Part shown: piece after piece, positions 18,661 to 23,375 of the stretch
Layout of the letters: each line of letters opens with the position of its first letter
Position numbering within the stretch: position 1 is the first letter of the stretch
Assembly (NCBI GenBank): GCA_018674305.1
Contig: JABHAL010000015.1
Location: 30,683 to 94,682 of the forward strand
Reading direction: 5' to 3'
DNA: 64,000 nt
From: Candidatus Falkowbacteria bacterium
GTDB taxonomy: Bacteria > Patescibacteriota > Patescibacteriia > UBA11705 > JABHMO01
The notes under the pieces: generated by a model
What the model was told of the DNA's origin: nothing
Seen by the model: the letters and a program-made list of their open reading frames with translations, nothing else
Databases searched by the model: none
Position numbers and translations under genes: made by a program

Positions 18661-19109
18661 ACATTGGATTTAATGATTTTTTGACAGTTATTTAAAATAT
18701 TTTTGCCGGACATAGTATCATCATACTCCTTCCCTATTTTTTCAAATATGACTTGATGGTCTGGTGAAATTAAAATCACCGCTGGTTTACTGGTGATATG
18801 ATCTTTGAATTTGGTTTTTAGTTTAAAATAATCAATCACAGAAAATTCAGTGTCTGATAAAATTGGAAACTTTAATCTGAGAAAAGTTTTAAGTAAACTA
18901 GATTTAAACTTAGTGTCCGGTGAAATTGCTAGAGGTTTTATATTCGAGGAAGTAAACTCATTAATTAAGCTGTTAACTTCAACTAATTGCCTTTTGCACA
19001 AATTACACCAGGCTCCACGAAAAAAGATTAATAGTAAATAATCTGATCCCTGGTATTGTTCAAAATTTAATATTGAATCGTCGTTGTTTTGTAGTTCTAA
19101 GTTTTGCAT
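18657..19109 (-). CDS. Thioredoxin-fold redoxin (AhpC/TSA-like thiol-disulfide oxidoreductase)
   Basis: GAWCNLC CxxC motif in a thioredoxin-like context; 4-nt overlap with the downstream exported protein gene. Confidence 0.55.
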   Translation of the reverse strand: MQNLELQNNDDSILNFEQYQGSDYLLLIFFRGAWCNLCKRQLVEVNSLINEFTSSNIKPLAISPDTKFKSSLLKTFLRLKFPILSDTEFSVIDYFKLKTKFKDHITSKPAVILISPDHQVIFEKIGKEYDDTMSGKNILNNCQKIIKSNV

Positions 19110-19290
19110 TATAAAAGGTGTGAGATTATAGTTGTAAGTTAATAGTTTAAGTATAGCAGTAAATTCAGAACTTTTGTAGCCTTGACAATGAGGGATTATT
19201 GTGATAAGTTTATTTTACTAGTTTAAGGTAATGAAATTGAATAGTAATTGATTCGCTGAAATTGAATTTTAACAAGATGGAGGGATTACA

Positions 19291-19536
19291 ATGTCAAACT
19301 TTACAGTTGTTTTAAAGCAAGACGAACCTGGTTTTTTTGTGGATGTACCTGCTTTGCCAGGATGTAATACTCAAGGCCGAAATGAAGAAGATGCAGTAGT
19401 TCAGGCTAAAGATGCAATCGTTGCCTGGTGTGATCATGCAACAGAACTAGGAGTTAAGATCCCAACTAATGTCCAGGTTAACCTTGCCAATTATAACGGC
19501 AATGTTTCACTGCATGTTGTGAGTGTGGATGTATGA
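19291..19536 (+). CDS. hicB: HicB-family antitoxin-like protein (UPF0150 N-terminal domain only)
   Basis: FVDVPALPGC...EEDAVVQAKDAI matches the HicB_N fold signature; GGAGGG ribosome-binding site; no hicA partner found. Confidence 0.6.
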   Translation: MSNFTVVLKQDEPGFFVDVPALPGCNTQGRNEEDAVVQAKDAIVAWCDHATELGVKIPTNVQVNLANYNGNVSLHVVSVDV

Positions 19537-19542
19537 AATCCA

Positions 19543-19575
19543 AAAGCCCGAGAACAAAGTTCCGGGCTTTTATAT
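19543..19575 (+). terminator. Rho-independent terminator after hicB
   Basis: aagcccg...cgggctt hairpin followed by ttttat. Confidence 0.6.
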
Positions 19576-19602
19576 TTGGCAGTTGTTTTTTGGTACTTGT
19601 AA

Positions 19603-19758
19603 CTTTTAACAACAATCATCCCAGTCAACCACACCATCAAGTTCTTTAAGTTTTTCTTCGTATTGCTTTAAGCAGTCTTCACAGCAAAAATTAACATCAT
19701 GTTTAGCGATGATTTTTTCATCTTCAATTTGTTTCTCGCAAGTAATGCATTTCTTCAT
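19603..19758 (-). CDS. Small Cys-rich protein (51 aa, MKKCITCEKQIEDEKIIAKHDVNFCCEDCLKQYEEKLKELDGVVDWDDCC), TRASH/MYM-like zinc-binding candidate; not in the ORF track
   Basis: Own translation of the minus strand; C-x2-C-x16-CC-x2-C spacing. Confidence 0.3.
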
Positions 19759-19826
19759 ATTGAATTGCAATAATATTCAATTTAATTATATCCTAGAATA
19801 GGTAAGAATGCAATTCATTCTCTCTG

Positions 19827-19855
19827 TTGACAAAGTTATACTTGTGTGCTATAAT
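19827..19855 (+). promoter_or_regulatory. Consensus sigma70 promoter (TTGACA-17 nt-TATAAT)
   Basis: ttgaca at 19827-19832, 17-nt spacer, tataat at 19850-19855. Confidence 0.7.
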
Positions 19856-19889
19856 ATTCTAATGATATTTGAGGTATATTTGAAGCGAC

Positions 19890-20099
19890 ATGGAGGTCAC
19901 TGTGAAAAAGGGAACAAAGTATATGCTGCAGTATGCTATGAATTTGAACATTCCTGCTGGTGGATCAACTGGCAACATGGAGATGAAGTATTTTCGAACT
20001 TTTATTGGCCTGTGTTGGTTTGTCATTCGTGACAAAGTTGCCTGCGCGGCGCTTAAGGCTGGTAGAGTCCGAGTCATCACAATCAAAAAAGACAAGTGA
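19890..20099 (+). CDS. Small ORF (69 aa) inside the promoter-to-terminator unit. An alternative 56-aa leaderless Cys/His-rich ORF runs 19862-20032; the unit could instead encode an sRNA
   Basis: GGAGGT ribosome-binding site before ATG/GTG; the stop abuts the strong terminator; no homology recognised. Confidence 0.25.
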   Translation: MEVTVKKGTKYMLQYAMNLNIPAGGSTGNMEMKYFRTFIGLCWFVIRDKVACAALKAGRVRVITIKKDK

Positions 20100-20106
20100 A
20101 AAACAA

Positions 20107-20141
20107 AGAGACGCGAGTTATCACACTCGCGTCTCTTTCTA
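20107..20141. terminator. Strong bidirectional terminator (12-bp stem agagacgcgagt/actcgcgtctct)
   Basis: Perfect 12-bp GC-rich inverted repeat; T-run on the minus side, serving gene 20150-20941 and the plus-strand mini-unit. Confidence 0.8.
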
Positions 20142-20149
20142 TATTAAAT

Positions 20150-20941
20150 CTATTTCTTCTTCTTTGTTACAGTTTTCTTTTTTGGAGCTGTTTTTTTAGT
20201 AGCTGCTTTCTTTGCTGCCGGTTTCTTTTTTGGAGCAGCCTTCTTGGTAGCTACTTTCTTTGCAGTAGGTTTCTTTTTTGGAGTAGCCTTCTTTTTTGTT
20301 ACTGCCTTTTTCTTTACTACAGCTTTCTTTGGAGCTGGTTTTGAAGGTGTTGCCTTTACTTCTGAAGACGGAGGAGAATAAGGTTTTGGTTTTTGTTCTT
20401 GGTAAGAAGATCGTCCACCTTGGTCACCACGTGAAGGTCTTGAGTTTTGTCCTTGATAAGAAGATCGTCCGCCTCGTCCACCACGTGAAGAGCTTGAATT
20501 TCGCCCTTGATATGAAGATCGGCCACCTTGTCCGTATGCGGGTCTTGAGTTTTGTCCATGATAAGATGATCGTCCGCCGTGACTTTGTGGGCGTGAGTAA
20601 GATTGGCTTTTGATCCCAAGTGCCTTTAGAATTTGGTCTAATTTAGCATTCAGAGTTTCAAAATCAGGTCTTGATCCACCTGCTCCACCTGAACCGCCAC
20701 TTGAGTCGCTTCTTTTTATACCACCAAAACATTTATTACAATAAATTGGCTTATCACCGCTTGGGTTGAAAGGCACTTCACAGCGCTGTCCACAAGCAGC
20801 ACAAACCGCCTTGAATAAAGGACGGTCAGAGTTTTTTCTATTTTCTTGGAAACATTTATCACAGAAAACCGGTTTGTCTCCAGAGGGTGTAAACGGAAGT
20901 TCACAACTATTTCCGCATTTATCACATTTTGCATTAAACAT
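20150..20941 (-). CDS. Nucleic-acid-binding protein: two CxxC...CxxC zinc ribbons, an RGG/SY-QG-N-SRP low-complexity repeat region and a Lys/Ala-rich histone-H1-like tail
   Basis: CDKCGNSCELPFTPSGDKPVFCDKCF and CAACGQRCEVPFNPSGDKPIYCNKCF; GGRSSYQGQNSRP repeats; C-terminal AKKAATKK repeats. Confidence 0.6.
   Translation of the reverse strand: MFNAKCDKCGNSCELPFTPSGDKPVFCDKCFQENRKNSDRPLFKAVCAACGQRCEVPFNPSGDKPIYCNKCFGGIKRSDSSGGSGGAGGSRPDFETLNAKLDQILKALGIKSQSYSRPQSHGGRSSYHGQNSRPAYGQGGRSSYQGRNSSSSRGGRGGRSSYQGQNSRPSRGDQGGRSSYQEQKPKPYSPPSSEVKATPSKPAPKKAVVKKKAVTKKKATPKKKPTAKKVATKKAAPKKKPAAKKAATKKTAPKKKTVTKKKK
20390..20620. repeat. Imperfect tandem DNA repeats (~39-nt unit, about 5 copies) encoding the GGRSSYQGxNSRP region
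   Basis: Recurrent ...gatcgtccgcc...gtccttgataagaagatcgtcc... units visible in the sequence. Confidence 0.55.
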
Positions 20942-20962: not shown

Positions 20963-21163
20963 TTACTTAATTATTTGTTGTACTCGACCTACTTCACCTG
21001 TTGTTAAGCGGACTTTTATACCTCGGTGATGTTCAGCTGAGGAGGTAAGTATATCCTTTATCACCCCAGATGTCAATGGCCCGCCTTTTTGGTCTTGTTT
21101 GAGGACAATAGCTACCTCAAGACCTGGGTGAAGATTGCTTCGTAAGGTGCCTGGATTTTCCAT
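20963..21163 (-). CDS. YwbE-family small protein (DUF2196-like)
   Basis: GVIKDILTSSAEHHRGIKVRLTTGEVGRV signature. Confidence 0.55.
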   Translation of the reverse strand: MENPGTLRSNLHPGLEVAIVLKQDQKGGPLTSGVIKDILTSSAEHHRGIKVRLTTGEVGRVQQIIK

Positions 21164-21809: not shown

Positions 21810-23375
21810 CTAGTTGGTGTCATTAAGTTGTTTTTTTGGTGCAACTTTGACCTTTGGTTTTATTTTAATTAGACCAGGCCCTTGCTGTACGGGTTGAACT
21901 TTAATATCAACTTTAGGAAAAACACTACTGCTGCCGTCATTGGTGAACTCTTTGTTTGGTGAATCACTAATTGTGCTACCACCTTGATCATAGGGTTCAG
22001 TTTTCGGTGCATTAATTTCTTTGGGATTGAACTTAGCTTCAACAGTAGGCTTTACTTCCTTTTTTTGGGGATCCCACTTAGTTTCGTCATAAGCTGGTAG
22101 CATTTGTTTTTCTTTTCTGATTTCGTGAACCTTTCGTTTCTGATTATCTTTCATAAGATCCTTTTTCTCGTTGATTTTTCTCAATAATTCATCTGCAGCA
22201 ACATCACCGCTTTCAGCCTTGGTAGTTAATTCTAATTTCTTGGCTTTAAGTATTTTAGCTTTTTCGATTCTGCGTCGGGCATCATTTTTTGCTGTGCTTA
22301 TGGTGGATTTTAGTTTACTGGATAATTCTTTGGCTTTTCCGGCTTGATCAAGAATCTTATGACGTCTTTCTAATAACTTTTCTTTCAACTCATCATTTTT
22401 AGCTTGAACATGGGCCATGTAATTCTTTACTTTGGCAGCACGTTCGCGAACATCAATTTTTTCCATTTTTTCTCCAAGTTTTCTGTGTCTTTCGGCAATA
22501 GCTATATCAAAAGCCTTTTTGTTATCTCCAAATTTATCTTTTAGTTTATCAATAAATTCTAAATCGTTTAAAGGTTTAAGATTACTACCTTGTTTTGCTT
22601 CAAATATTTTGCGTAAACGTTCAGCTACTTTTTCTGGATCGTTATTGTCAACCTTTTCCATAACTTCTTTCATGTTTTCCAAATGTCTTTCGCGGGTGGC
22701 TTTAATTTTTTCATAAGCTTTGTTTGTCACTTGGTTTTCCAGTTTTTCAAGAATTTTATGGTGCAAGTACTGTTGGTGGGTAAATTTATCTTGAAGGTTT
22801 TTCAATTTTTCCGGATCTATATCGAAACTTGTGATTTTGTTTTTAATGTAAGTTACATATTCTTGAGCTTTCTCAATGTCTTTAACTGCTTTAGCTTTTA
22901 ATTTTTCATTATCACTATTTTCAATAACGTATTTGGCTCGAGCAACTTTTTGATTAGCGTAGGTAAATCGCTTTTCTGCAGCTTTAGCGGCATCAAAAGT
23001 TGTAGCTAAAGAAATAGCTTGTTTGGTATTTTGCCACCAACGACGCCAGCGGGAAGTTGTTTGAACATTTGCGTTAACCTCTAAGTCCTCAACTGTTACT
23101 TCATTATCAATTATCGCTTCTTCAGAAACTATTTCTTCTATTACTAAATCATCATATTCTGCTGGTAAAACAATTTCTTCAGTTGGTAAAGCACCGCCTT
23201 CAGTTGATCCGCTTATATTTTCAGCCTCCATAACTTCAATTGTTGTGTCATGATTGACATCCTCTGCTTCGCCTTGAATATCGCCGATCTGTATAAATGC
23301 GCTTTGTGCTAAAGTTGGAGAAGCTATACAAAGCATTACCAAAATGATTAAAATTCGACTAAGATTAGATAACAT
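21810..23375 (-). CDS. Secreted K/E-rich coiled-coil protein (hypothetical)
   Basis: Signal peptide (ILVMLCIASPTLAQS) followed by a long charged helical region. Confidence 0.45.
   Translation of the reverse strand: MLSNLSRILIILVMLCIASPTLAQSAFIQIGDIQGEAEDVNHDTTIEVMEAENISGSTEGGALPTEEIVLPAEYDDLVIEEIVSEEAIIDNEVTVEDLEVNANVQTTSRWRRWWQNTKQAISLATTFDAAKAAEKRFTYANQKVARAKYVIENSDNEKLKAKAVKDIEKAQEYVTYIKNKITSFDIDPEKLKNLQDKFTHQQYLHHKILEKLENQVTNKAYEKIKATRERHLENMKEVMEKVDNNDPEKVAERLRKIFEAKQGSNLKPLNDLEFIDKLKDKFGDNKKAFDIAIAERHRKLGEKMEKIDVRERAAKVKNYMAHVQAKNDELKEKLLERRHKILDQAGKAKELSSKLKSTISTAKNDARRRIEKAKILKAKKLELTTKAESGDVAADELLRKINEKKDLMKDNQKRKVHEIRKEKQMLPAYDETKWDPQKKEVKPTVEAKFNPKEINAPKTEPYDQGGSTISDSPNKEFTNDGSSSVFPKVDIKVQPVQQGPGLIKIKPKVKVAPKKQLNDTN

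What the first reader, a model, noticed from the sequence alone, without database searches (positions are those of the whole stretch)
20150..20941. Zinc-ribbon x2 + RGG/SY-rich repeat + histone-H1-like lysine tail protein encoded with tandem DNA repeats
Two CxxC-x17-CxxC modules (C..C.ELPF.PSGDKP.FC.KCF) are followed by about 5 imperfect GGRSSYQGQNSRP repeats (tandem ~39-nt DNA repeats at 20390-20620) and a C-terminal (A/P/T)KK(A/K) tail. This resembles eukaryotic RGG RNA-binding proteins fused to a bacterial Hc1/AlgP-type DNA-condensing tail. It is an unusual architecture that may act as a nucleoid or RNA chaperone in a genome lacking many canonical factors. The repeat tract is also a likely site of length polymorphism.
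Basis: seen in the sequence. Interest (0 to 1): 0.5.

Follow-up and report, generated by a model that had tools for sequence, protein, structure and literature searches.

The report
Basic zinc-finger protein with repeat insertion
This gene from a Candidatus Falkowbacteria genome encodes a very basic protein with two zinc fingers and a disordered tail; it belongs to a large, catalogued but uncharacterised family of ultra-small (CPR) bacteria that probably binds RNA near the ribosome, and only its tyrosine/arginine-rich repeat insertion is unusual.

Summary
The ORF (20150-20941, minus strand, 263 aa) is real and reads as described. It has two CxxC-x17-CxxC modules, a short conserved helix, four (plus one degenerate) GGRSSY-type repeats, and a 73-residue tail that is 42% lysine. 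The DNA repeat period is 51-54 nt, not about 39 nt.

The zinc module is a catalogued domain, TIGR04272 / Pfam PF23477, a probable treble clef rather than a zinc ribbon. The architecture of two zinc modules, a helix and a lysine tail is standard for a huge Patescibacteria family: 6,737 clusters at 50% identity and at least 588 species. Only the 82-residue S/G/R/Q/Y repeat insertion is specific to this lineage. It seems to replace the F/RGG-rich N-terminal and inter-finger segments that other members carry.

The exact protein recurs on at least 24 independent contigs, so it is not an assembly artefact, and no length polymorphism was seen.

In 80 related genomes the gene sits next to ribosome-associated GTPases (EngB, HflX, BipA), cold-shock proteins and DEAD-box helicases far more often than control genes in the same loci do. 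The best reading is a non-specific RNA or ribosome-associated chaperone. A DNA-condensing, histone-like role is less supported. The function is inferred, not shown.

The parts
20150..20941 (-). Complete CDS, 263 aa, pI 10.3, net charge +46; stop codon at 20150-20152
20831..20941 (-). Zinc module 1 (aa 1-37; Cys ligands C6, C9, C27, C30). TIGR04272/PF23477, predicted treble clef.
20717..20818 (-). Zinc module 2 (aa 42-75; Cys ligands C47, C50, C68, C71)
20669..20716 (-). Gly/Ser-rich flexible linker (aa 76-91, KRSDSSGGSGGAGGSR)
20618..20668 (-). Family-conserved amphipathic helix (aa 92-108, PDFETLNAKLDQILKAL). K100, L101 and D102 are conserved in at least 90% of homologs. AF2 helix 92-107, pLDDT about 77-88.
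20372..20617 (-). Lineage-specific S/G/R/Q/Y-rich insertion (aa 109-190), absent from all 42 aligned homologs and from the 80 genome loci. Predicted disordered.
20366..20578 (-). Four tandem units starting GGRSSY (51/54/54/54 nt). The core hexapeptide differs only at synonymous sites.
20153..20371 (-). Lys/Ala/Pro/Thr tail (aa 191-263; 31 K of 73). Contains a 48-nt tandem repeat at 20160-20293.
20105..20138 (-). Intrinsic-terminator-like hairpin (14 bp stem, then a T-run) 12 nt after the stop codon. It can serve both strands.
21048..21076 (-). Promoter-like site (TTGACA-17-TATACT, 11 of 12) inside the upstream DUF2196 gene, about 100 nt before the start codon. This is a consensus match only.

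Best explanation
This is a member of the CxxC-x17-CxxC (TIGR04272 / PF23477) family as it occurs across Patescibacteria. The protein is small and extremely basic. Two zinc-stabilised treble-clef modules and one conserved short helix form the structured core. Long cationic disordered segments supply multivalent, largely sequence-independent affinity for nucleic acid.

I infer that the preferred ligand is RNA, meaning rRNA or structured mRNA. I also infer that the protein works as an RNA chaperone or ribosome-associated cofactor alongside cold-shock proteins, DEAD-box helicases and ribosome-assembly or rescue GTPases.

In this Falkowbacteria lineage the usual Phe/Arg/Gly-rich N-terminal and inter-finger segments are missing. 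A tandemly duplicated Tyr/Arg/Gly/Ser/Gln segment has been inserted between the helix and the lysine tail, and it probably takes over their role.

**Shown here:** domain membership, family architecture, predicted disorder, the neighbourhood association, and the stability and coding nature of the repeats.

**Inferred:** zinc binding (shown only for Methanosarcina homologs), RNA as the ligand, and chaperone or ribosome-linked activity.
For: **Domain and core.**
- Both curated models hit at 99.3 bits.
- The four Cys of each module and the PF-P...KP motif are invariant in 43 sequences.
- AF2 predicts the fingers and the helix confidently and the rest as disordered.

**Family-wide architecture.**
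- 108 of 142 top representatives have tails with at least 25% K.
- 176 of 207 multi-finger members have an N-terminal segment of about 30 aa that is 22% G, 20% R and 8% F.

**Gene neighbourhood.**
- Among 150 immediate neighbours in 80 species, 15 hit MMR_HSR1 (EngB, HflX), 11 hit GTP_EFTU (6 of them BipA), 9 hit CSD and 4 hit DEAD.
- Among 150 genes 3-4 positions away in the same loci, the counts are 2, 2, at most 1 and at most 1.
- Fisher p is 9e-4, 0.01 and 0.01 for the first three; DEAD is not significant.
- 32 of 80 loci, in 18 of 51 lineage groups, carry such a neighbour. Several are same-strand with gaps of 19-180 nt.

**Published precedent.**
- The KPAA-repeat, H1-like disordered tail of P. 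aeruginosa PhaF binds RNA directly. PhaF was found by co-capture with CspD (PMC12818456).
- The FUS zinc finger binds RNA together with its flanking RGG regions (PMC12344763 abstract).
- M. mazei CxxC-x17-CxxC proteins bind zinc by ICP-MS (PMC12704099).
Against: - There is no direct evidence for any ligand.
- In this window the gene's own neighbours are DUF2196, a flavodoxin-like reductase, a TRASH-like protein, HicB and AhpC. They give no RNA link.
- The neighbourhood statistics ignore phylogenetic non-independence. HflX adjacency falls in a single lineage group, and DEAD adjacency alone is not significant.
- Lysine-rich tails and CxxC-x17-CxxC treble clefs such as GATA fingers also bind DNA.
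- Fold searches gave no significant match that could point to a ligand.
Confidence: 0.5

Rival explanations
1. Nucleoid-associated, DNA-condensing protein. The lysine/alanine/proline tail would act like chlamydial Hc1/Hc2, AlgP or linker histone H1, with the zinc fingers as GATA-like DNA readers.
For: - The tail is 42% K with (A/P/T)KK periodicity.
- There is a weak compositional hit to an H1-like model, E 0.011.
- One homolog carries a precomputed HC2 hit (P0105).
- The Cys spacing equals that of GATA fingers, and the best, non-significant, Foldseek hit is the GATA3 DNA-binding domain.
Against: - The H1-like score is 16 bits against a cut-off of 80, and there is no Hc1/HC2 Pfam hit.
- Neighbouring genes in relatives are translation and RNA factors, not replication or chromosome genes.
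- KPAA-type tails are now known to bind RNA.
- RGG segments are typical of RNA binders.
Confidence: 0.2
2. A lineage-specific structural ribosomal protein, or a stably bound ribosome factor such as a hibernation factor, of CPR ribosomes. This would be distinct from a transient chaperone.
For: - The protein is very basic and has zinc fingers, like several ribosomal proteins.
- It is extremely widespread in CPR.
- Its neighbours include ribosome GTPases, bS20 and bL33.
- One database protein fuses the family to a uS3 C-terminal-like sequence (P0254).
Against: - The disordered parts vary greatly in length and sequence, and the number of fingers ranges from 1 to 5. That is atypical for a stoichiometric ribosomal protein.
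- There are no hits to any ribosomal protein family.
- P0254 may be a chimera.
- No CPR ribosome structure was found in the literature search.
Confidence: 0.15
3. Transcription-related zinc protein that interacts with RNA polymerase, as proposed for the Methanosarcina small proteins by analogy with the TFIIB zinc ribbon.
For: - The M. mazei authors suggest a transcription role, and one paralog is annotated as an RNAP subunit.
- GreA is an immediate neighbour in 2 loci and lies within the locus in about 4 (cluster 20).
Against: - The TFIIB analogy rests on Cys spacing alone.
- GreA adjacency is rare.
- No sequence or fold match to TFIIB or RNAP subunits was found.
Confidence: 0.07
4. Spurious ORF, or a repeat region created by misassembly.
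For: One low-coverage contig breaks just before the repeats.
Against: - The identical 263-aa product is on at least 24 contigs, in 51 index blocks.
- The flanks on both sides of the repeats are homologous and in frame.
- The GGRSSY core shows only synonymous differences between units.
- A terminator lies directly after the stop codon.
Confidence: 0.01

Closest known systems
CxxC-x17-CxxC domain proteins (NCBIfam TIGR04272; Pfam PF23477 zf_Tbcl_2), including the Methanosarcina mazei small zinc-binding proteins A00184 and A01980
   Same: The same domain, scoring well above the curated cut-offs, with the same invariant Cys and PF-P...KP motif. Zinc binding was shown experimentally for the M. mazei members (PMC12704099).
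   Different: The M. mazei proteins are single-module small proteins. This protein has two modules, the conserved helix, a lysine tail and a unique repeat insertion. No family member has a known cellular function.
Patescibacteria subfamily with two zinc modules, a helix and a K-rich tail (for example the Falkowbacteria and Kerfeldbacteria proteins P0006, P0013 and P0016)
   Same: 39-52% identity over the first 108 residues. The order of elements is the same, as are the helix motif F-x-x-[LI]-N-x-K-L-D-x-I-L and the C-terminus ending in a lysine run.
   Different: This protein lacks the F/RGG-rich N-terminus. Its inter-finger linker is about 10 aa against a median of 27. It carries an 82-aa S/G/R/Q/Y tandem-repeat insertion found in no other member, and its K tail is longer.
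FET proteins (FUS/EWS/TAF15) and CIRBP-type RGG / RSY-rich RNA-binding proteins of eukaryotes
   Same: A Ser/Tyr/Gly/Gln plus Arg-Gly low-complexity composition lies next to a C4 zinc finger. In FUS the finger and the flanking RGG regions bind RNA together.
   Different: There is no homology. The RRM is absent, the finger is not of the RanBP2 type, and the repeat units are unrelated. The resemblance is compositional and convergent.
Bacterial histone H1-like K/A/P-repeat proteins (Pseudomonas AlgP and PhaF, chlamydial Hc1/Hc2, Burkholderia/Bordetella H1-like)
   Same: A disordered lysine/alanine/proline repeat tail, including one KPAA motif, with a very high positive charge.
   Different: No profile match reaches any cut-off, and the structured parts are unrelated. 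The PhaF tail is now known to bind RNA and activate translation, so this type of tail does not by itself imply DNA condensation.
Plant cold-shock-domain / glycine-rich proteins with CCHC zinc knuckles (from my own knowledge, not tested here)
   Same: Gly/Arg-rich disordered segments alternate with small zinc modules. They have RNA-chaperone function and a link to cold shock.
   Different: The zinc module type is different (CCHC knuckle). In plants the cold-shock domain is fused; here the CSD protein is a neighbouring gene in some relatives.

Membership tests
TIGR04272 / PF23477 (CxxC-x17-CxxC, probable treble-clef zinc finger) | Profile score above the curated cut-off | tested here: met
   99.3 bits against cut-offs of 36 (NCBIfam) and 27 (Pfam), in two stretches
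TIGR04272 / PF23477 (CxxC-x17-CxxC, probable treble-clef zinc finger) | Four Cys with C-x2-C-x17-C-x2-C spacing and the conserved VPF-P-x3-KP-x2 motif | tested here: met
   Present in both modules. These positions are invariant in 43-sequence and 29-module alignments.
TIGR04272 / PF23477 (CxxC-x17-CxxC, probable treble-clef zinc finger) | Treble-clef topology: first CxxC in a beta-hairpin knuckle, second at a helix N-terminus | tested here: met
   AF2 gives strands 2-5 and 12-15 and helix 28-37, then strands 43-46 and 53-56 and helix 69-74, all with pLDDT >90. This is a prediction only. Fold searches found no significant solved neighbour.
TIGR04272 / PF23477 (CxxC-x17-CxxC, probable treble-clef zinc finger) | Binds zinc | not testable with these tools
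   Shown by ICP-MS only for two M. mazei homologs (PMC12704099)
Patescibacteria two-finger / helix / K-tail subfamily | Conserved helix motif after the second finger | tested here: met
   FETLNAKLDQILKAL aligns to the family motif. K100, L101 and D102 are conserved in at least 90% of sequences.
Patescibacteria two-finger / helix / K-tail subfamily | Lysine-rich C-terminal tail | tested here: met
   42% K here. 108 of 142 representatives have at least 25% K.
Patescibacteria two-finger / helix / K-tail subfamily | F/RGG-rich N-terminal segment and R/G/S/D-rich inter-finger linker | tested here: not met
   The start codon lies 5 residues before the first Cys, with the upstream gene only 21 nt away. 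The linker is about 10 aa against a median of 27. 176 of 207 members have the N-terminal segment.
Histone H1-like / Hc1 / Hc2 / AlgP nucleoid proteins | Profile match to an H1-like, Hc1 or HC2 model | tested here: not met
   hist_H1_lk_Burk scores 16.1 bits against a cut-off of 80. No Hc1 or HC2 Pfam hit appears at E up to 1.
Histone H1-like / Hc1 / Hc2 / AlgP nucleoid proteins | Condenses DNA | not testable with these tools
   Needs biochemistry
FET / RGG RNA-binding proteins | RRM and RanBP2-type zinc finger | tested here: not met
   No such Pfam hits
FET / RGG RNA-binding proteins | S/Y/G/Q and RGG low-complexity composition | tested here: met
   The insertion is 24% S, 20% G, 13% R, 12% Q and 8.5% Y. 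This is composition only.
   The second CxxC is predicted at a helix N-terminus. Zn_ribbon_8 has E 0.86, 10 bits against a cut-off of 34.
Ribosomal proteins | Match to a ribosomal protein family, or presence in ribosomes | tested here: not met
   No ribosomal protein family among the Pfam or NCBIfam hits. Physical association with ribosomes is not testable here.

The most novel reading that the evidence does not exclude
The CxxC-x17-CxxC / helix / polycation family could be a CPR-wide, so far unrecognised RNA chaperone or ribosome-assembly cofactor. It might partly compensate for the reduced set of ribosome biogenesis factors in these bacteria. The Falkowbacteria member would then have independently evolved a FUS/CIRBP-like Tyr/Arg 'sticker' low-complexity domain next to its zinc fingers. 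That would make it a bacterial analogue of FET proteins, able to drive RNA-dependent condensation.
Probability: 0.15. Interest if true: 0.75.

Novelty: new variant of a known kind. Interest (0 to 1): 0.42.

Why it matters
The family is very large. It has 6,737 clusters at 50% identity and occurs in at least 588 Patescibacteria species, with single-module relatives in DPANN archaea, Methanosarcina and putative viral contigs. No function has been assigned to it.

CPR bacteria carry roughly half the usual number of ribosome biogenesis factors (PMC12641178). A conserved, very basic zinc-finger protein that repeatedly sits beside EngB, HflX, BipA, cold-shock proteins and DEAD-box helicases is therefore a concrete candidate for a missing RNA or ribosome chaperone, and it can be tested.

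The member in this window adds an example of low-complexity RNA-binding segments being lost at one position and regained at another by tandem duplication. Tyr replaces Phe as the aromatic residue. This is relevant to how disordered RNA-binding regions evolve in bacteria.

If the protein turns out to be only a generic polycation, the finding is ordinary.

Tried and rejected
- **PDB sequence searches.** The full protein and a 29-module profile found no real relatives. The best hits are linker-like 'TGEKPYxC' matches to C2H2 arrays.
- **Foldseek against the PDB.** Nothing below E of about 1. GATA3 and LIM domains rank on top.
- **AFDB50 library.** Unavailable.
- **Homologs of the repeat region.** None at E up to 0.01 among 5.8 billion proteins. 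No close relative in JGI metagenomes.
- **Repeat copy number in a sister species.** The relative with 86% QueA identity has contigs that end before the locus. The cluster look-up did not contain the protein.
- **Neighbour look-up.** Using the adjacent DUF2196 protein found only the same gene arrangement with the same 263-aa product.
- **Domain fusions to enzymes.** None among the 150 best representatives, all of which are 339 aa or shorter.
- **PHROGs.** No hit.
- **Literature.** Searches for PF23477, TIGR04272 and PF13451 returned nothing.
- **Window-specific neighbours.** They are not conserved next to homologs.
- **Plus-strand ORFs over the repeats** (20096-20344 and 20296-20613). Rejected as shadow ORFs, because homologs conserve the minus-strand frame.

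Full report
**1. Observation**

The minus-strand ORF at 20150-20941 encodes 263 aa. It has these elements:
- Two modules with exact C-x2-C-x17-C-x2-C spacing: C6/C9/C27/C30 and C47/C50/C68/C71.
- A Gly/Ser linker.
- A short helix, PDFETLNAKLDQILKAL.
- An 82-residue segment rich in S, G, R, Q and Y.
- A 73-residue tail with 31 lysines.

The whole protein has pI 10.3 and a net charge of +46.

Tandem Repeats Finder reports a period-54 array of 3.7 copies (score 210) at 20380-20575. It also reports a period-48 array of 2.8 copies at 20160-20293, inside the lysine tail.

At the protein level there are four units starting with GGRSSY at residues 122, 139, 157 and 175. They correspond to 51, 54, 54 and 54 nt at 20366-20578, and a degenerate SQSYSRPQSH precedes them.

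A strong terminator-like hairpin follows the stop codon at 20138-20105. The upstream DUF2196 gene ends 21 nt before the start codon, so an N-terminal extension is not possible.

**2. Real gene, not an artefact**

- The identical 263-aa product is encoded on at least 24 contigs, in 51 index blocks, of independent assemblies, always with the same neighbours.
- Looking up the adjacent 66-aa DUF2196 protein found it in 70 blocks. The extra blocks are mostly short contigs, and every place read had the 263-aa gene beside it.
- One low-coverage ENA contig stops just before the repeats and has two G-to-T differences near its end. This shows that the repeats can break poor assemblies. It does not show that they are artefacts.
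- Both flanks of the insertion align in frame with homologs.
- Within the invariant GGRSSY core, the four units differ only at synonymous positions. That indicates selection on the peptide and a duplication that is not very recent.
- No variant with another copy number was found. The methods available could only find exact-sequence matches, so rare variants are not excluded.

**3. Identity of the zinc module**

Both modules match NCBIfam TIGR04272 ('CxxC-x17-CxxC domain') and Pfam PF23477 ('zf_Tbcl_2, probable treble clef zinc finger') at 99.3 bits. The cut-offs are 36 and 27 bits.

AlphaFold2, run with a 43-sequence alignment, predicts each module with pLDDT >90. Each is a beta-hairpin carrying the first CxxC in its turn, followed by a helix whose N-terminus carries the second CxxC. 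That is a treble clef, not a zinc ribbon.

AlphaFold2 predicts the helix at 92-107 with pLDDT of about 77-88. Everything from residue 109 onward has pLDDT <60 and no secondary structure, which serves as a proxy for disorder.

The only experimental work found concerns Methanosarcina mazei small proteins with this domain. They bind zinc by ICP-MS, and their function is unknown (PMC12704099).

**4. The family**

- The N-terminal 114 residues retrieve about 200 proteins. The best 65 are proteins of 135-200 aa with two modules, 39-54% identical over 95% of the query. Those that carry a source name are attributed to Falkowbacteria, Kerfeldbacteria or 'Patescibacteria group'.
- A module profile finds 6,737 cluster representatives at 50% identity with E up to 1e-3 among 1.84 billion. 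They carry one to five modules. All of the best 150 are 339 aa or shorter, and none is fused to an enzyme.
Named lineages among the 80 loci kept include Parcubacteria, Paceibacterota, Buchanan-, Falkow-, Kerfeld-, Komeili- and Magasanikbacteria, Gracili-, Peregrini- and Peribacteria, and Dojkabacteria/WS6.

The architecture is strikingly constant:
- An N-terminal segment of about 30 aa that is 22% G, 20% R and 8% F. It is present in 176 of 207 multi-module members.
- Module 1.
- A linker of about 27 aa rich in R, G, S and D.
- Module 2.
- A short G/K/S linker.
- The helix F-x-x-[LI]-N-x-K-L-D-x-I-L-x-x-L, with K, L and D conserved in at least 90%.
- A lysine-rich tail of 40-110 aa, usually ending in KKK. 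108 of 142 representatives have at least 25% K.

Single-module versions (RGG-rich N-terminus, module, helix) occur in Nanoarchaeota and other organisms. Minimal or zf_Tbcl-fused versions occur on putative viral contigs.

**5. What is special here**

The window comes from a Candidatus Falkowbacteria bacterium. Its QueA is 100% identical to an NCBI protein of that name.

The protein lacks the N-terminal F/RGG segment, and its inter-finger linker is only about 10 aa. It carries an 82-aa insertion between the helix and the K tail that is 24% S, 20% G, 13% R, 12% Q and 8.5% Y. This insertion is absent from all 42 aligned homologs and all 80 genome loci.

The insertion has no detectable relative among 5.8 billion proteins or in JGI metagenomes.

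I read this as the loss of the Arg/Gly/aromatic disordered element at one position and its replacement at another by local tandem duplication, with Tyr instead of Phe as the aromatic residue. That reading is an inference. Another member, P0131, has independent R/D/G/Y-rich termini, so Tyr/Arg-rich tails recur in the family.

**6. Functional evidence from context**

The window's own neighbours give no clue. They are DUF2196/YwbE-like, a flavodoxin-like FMN reductase, a TRASH-like Cys-rich protein, HicB-like and AhpC. They are not conserved beside homologs.

Across 80 species, clustering of neighbouring ORFs shows recurrent cold-shock proteins, TypA/BipA, DEAD-box helicases, EngB/YsxC, HflX, ABC-F-like ATPases, bS20, bL33 and GreA.

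A Pfam scan compared the 150 immediate upstream and downstream genes with 150 control genes 3-4 positions away in the same loci:

| Pfam family | Immediate neighbours | Control genes | Fisher p |
|---|---|---|---|
| MMR_HSR1 | 15 | 2 | 9e-4 |
| GTP_EFTU | 11 (BipA_C 6) | 2 (BipA_C 2) | 0.01 |
| CSD | 9 | at most 1 | 0.01 |
| DEAD | 4 | at most 1 | 0.19 |

Thirty-two of 80 loci, in 18 of 51 lineage groups at 65% identity, have at least one such neighbour. The partners differ between lineages, and HflX adjacency is confined to one group. Some arrangements look operonic: DEAD-box to zinc gene with gaps of 19 and 39 nt, and csp to zinc gene with gaps of 94-199 nt on the same strand.

These statistics are not corrected for phylogeny. 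Even so, the common theme of ribosome assembly, ribosome rescue and cold-shock RNA remodelling is clear.

**7. Mechanism proposed**

The structured core is two zinc treble clefs with conserved Phe, Tyr, Lys and Pro surface residues. The short helix has conserved polar residues and probably serves as an oligomerisation or docking element. Long cationic disordered segments (RGG/aromatic and K/A/P/T) supply multivalent, low-specificity binding to RNA.

Published precedents make this plausible:
- The H1-like KPAA-repeat tail of Pseudomonas PhaF binds RNA directly and activates translation, and the authors propose that it does so by recruiting 30S subunits. PhaF was discovered by co-capture with CspD, and AlgP was co-captured as well (PMC12818456).
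- The FUS zinc finger binds RNA in concert with its flanking RGG regions (PMC12344763 abstract).
- CPR genomes have about half the usual number of ribosome biogenesis factors (PMC12641178). A lineage-wide accessory RNA chaperone would make biological sense there.

Zinc binding, RNA as the ligand and chaperone activity are all inferred for this protein.

**8. Rivals**

- **DNA-condensing nucleoid protein.** This remains possible because of the lysine tail and the GATA-like Cys spacing. It lacks profile support (16 bits against 80) and contextual support.
- **Stoichiometric ribosomal or hibernation protein.** This fits the neighbourhood, but the family's variable module number and tails argue against it.
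- **Transcription role.** This rests on analogy only.
- **Artefact.** Excluded.

**9. Novelty and verdict**

The domain and the family are catalogued and routinely annotated as 'CxxC-x17-CxxC domain-containing protein', so the architecture is not new. What this analysis adds:
- The lineage-specific repeat insertion together with the loss of the usual RGG segments.
- The neighbourhood link of the family to ribosome-associated GTPases and cold-shock factors. I did not find this link in the searchable literature.

I classify the finding as a new variant of a known kind, of moderate interest.

Noticed in passing
window 19827-20138 (+): A perfect sigma-70 consensus (TTGACA, 17 nt, TATAAT with an upstream TG; 12 of 12) points toward the 3' end of the zinc-finger gene. 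About 250 nt later comes the shared hairpin terminator. The stretch holds a 69-aa ORF (19890-20099) that is called as a gene in public assemblies, with no Pfam hit and no Rfam match. The fold z-score is -2.0, which I attribute mainly to the terminator hairpin. It could be a small protein or an sRNA convergent with the gene.
   Followed up: partly
window 19606-19770 (-): A 54-aa Cys-rich protein with a weak TRASH-domain match (E 2e-4, below the cut-off) that ends in DDCC. It is a possible small metal-binding protein immediately downstream of the region.
   Followed up: partly
window 19291-19536 (+): A HicB-like antitoxin gene (PF15919, E 1e-8) with no HicA-type toxin ORF among the ORFs listed in 19000-19800 (no profile search for HicA was run). 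It is apparently an orphan.
   Followed up: no
window 20160-20293 (-): The lysine tail is itself a 48-nt (16-aa) tandem repeat, PKKKP[TA]AKK[VA]ATKK[AT]A, with 2.8 copies and 83% matches.
   Followed up: yes
window 20096-20344 (+) and 20296-20613 (+): Long ORFs lie on the opposite strand across the repeats. Similar shadow ORFs appear opposite the gene in 26-71 of the 80 related loci. They are a by-product of the low-complexity coding sequence, not genes.
   Followed up: yes
L001:2739-3053 (ENA contig NODE_8721, coverage 3.3x): This low-coverage contig of the same organism ends about 40 nt before the repeat-bearing insertion and has two G-to-T differences near its end. These create a false 94-aa truncated protein, P0001, in the protein database.
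   Followed up: yes
L090:2998-3129 and L103:2827-3129 (IMG/VR contigs): Forty-nine putative viral contigs encode relatives. L090 encodes a minimal 43-aa single-module protein, and L103 a 100-aa protein that combines a motif resembling the PF13451 zf_Tbcl part of P0113 (judged by eye, not profile-tested), an RG-rich linker and one CxxC-x17-CxxC module.
   Followed up: partly
protein P0254: A family member continues in frame, directly after its helix, into a sequence that I recognise by eye as resembling the C-terminal domain of ribosomal protein uS3 (no profile search was run). It is either a genuine fusion or an assembly or gene-calling chimera.
   Followed up: no
window 21810-23375 (-): A 521-aa protein with an N-terminal signal-like hydrophobic segment and a long Lys/Glu-rich region that looks coiled-coil-like (judged by eye). 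It has no Pfam hit and is conserved on the same contigs as the zinc-finger gene.
   Followed up: no
window about 25500-62000 (-): A run of roughly 30 same-strand genes. The five sampled gave two weak MmpA-like (transporter-type) hits and three glycosyltransferase hits (TuaC/TuaH-like, GT2/GT4). It appears to be a large cell-envelope polysaccharide locus, unusually big for a small CPR genome.
   Followed up: partly
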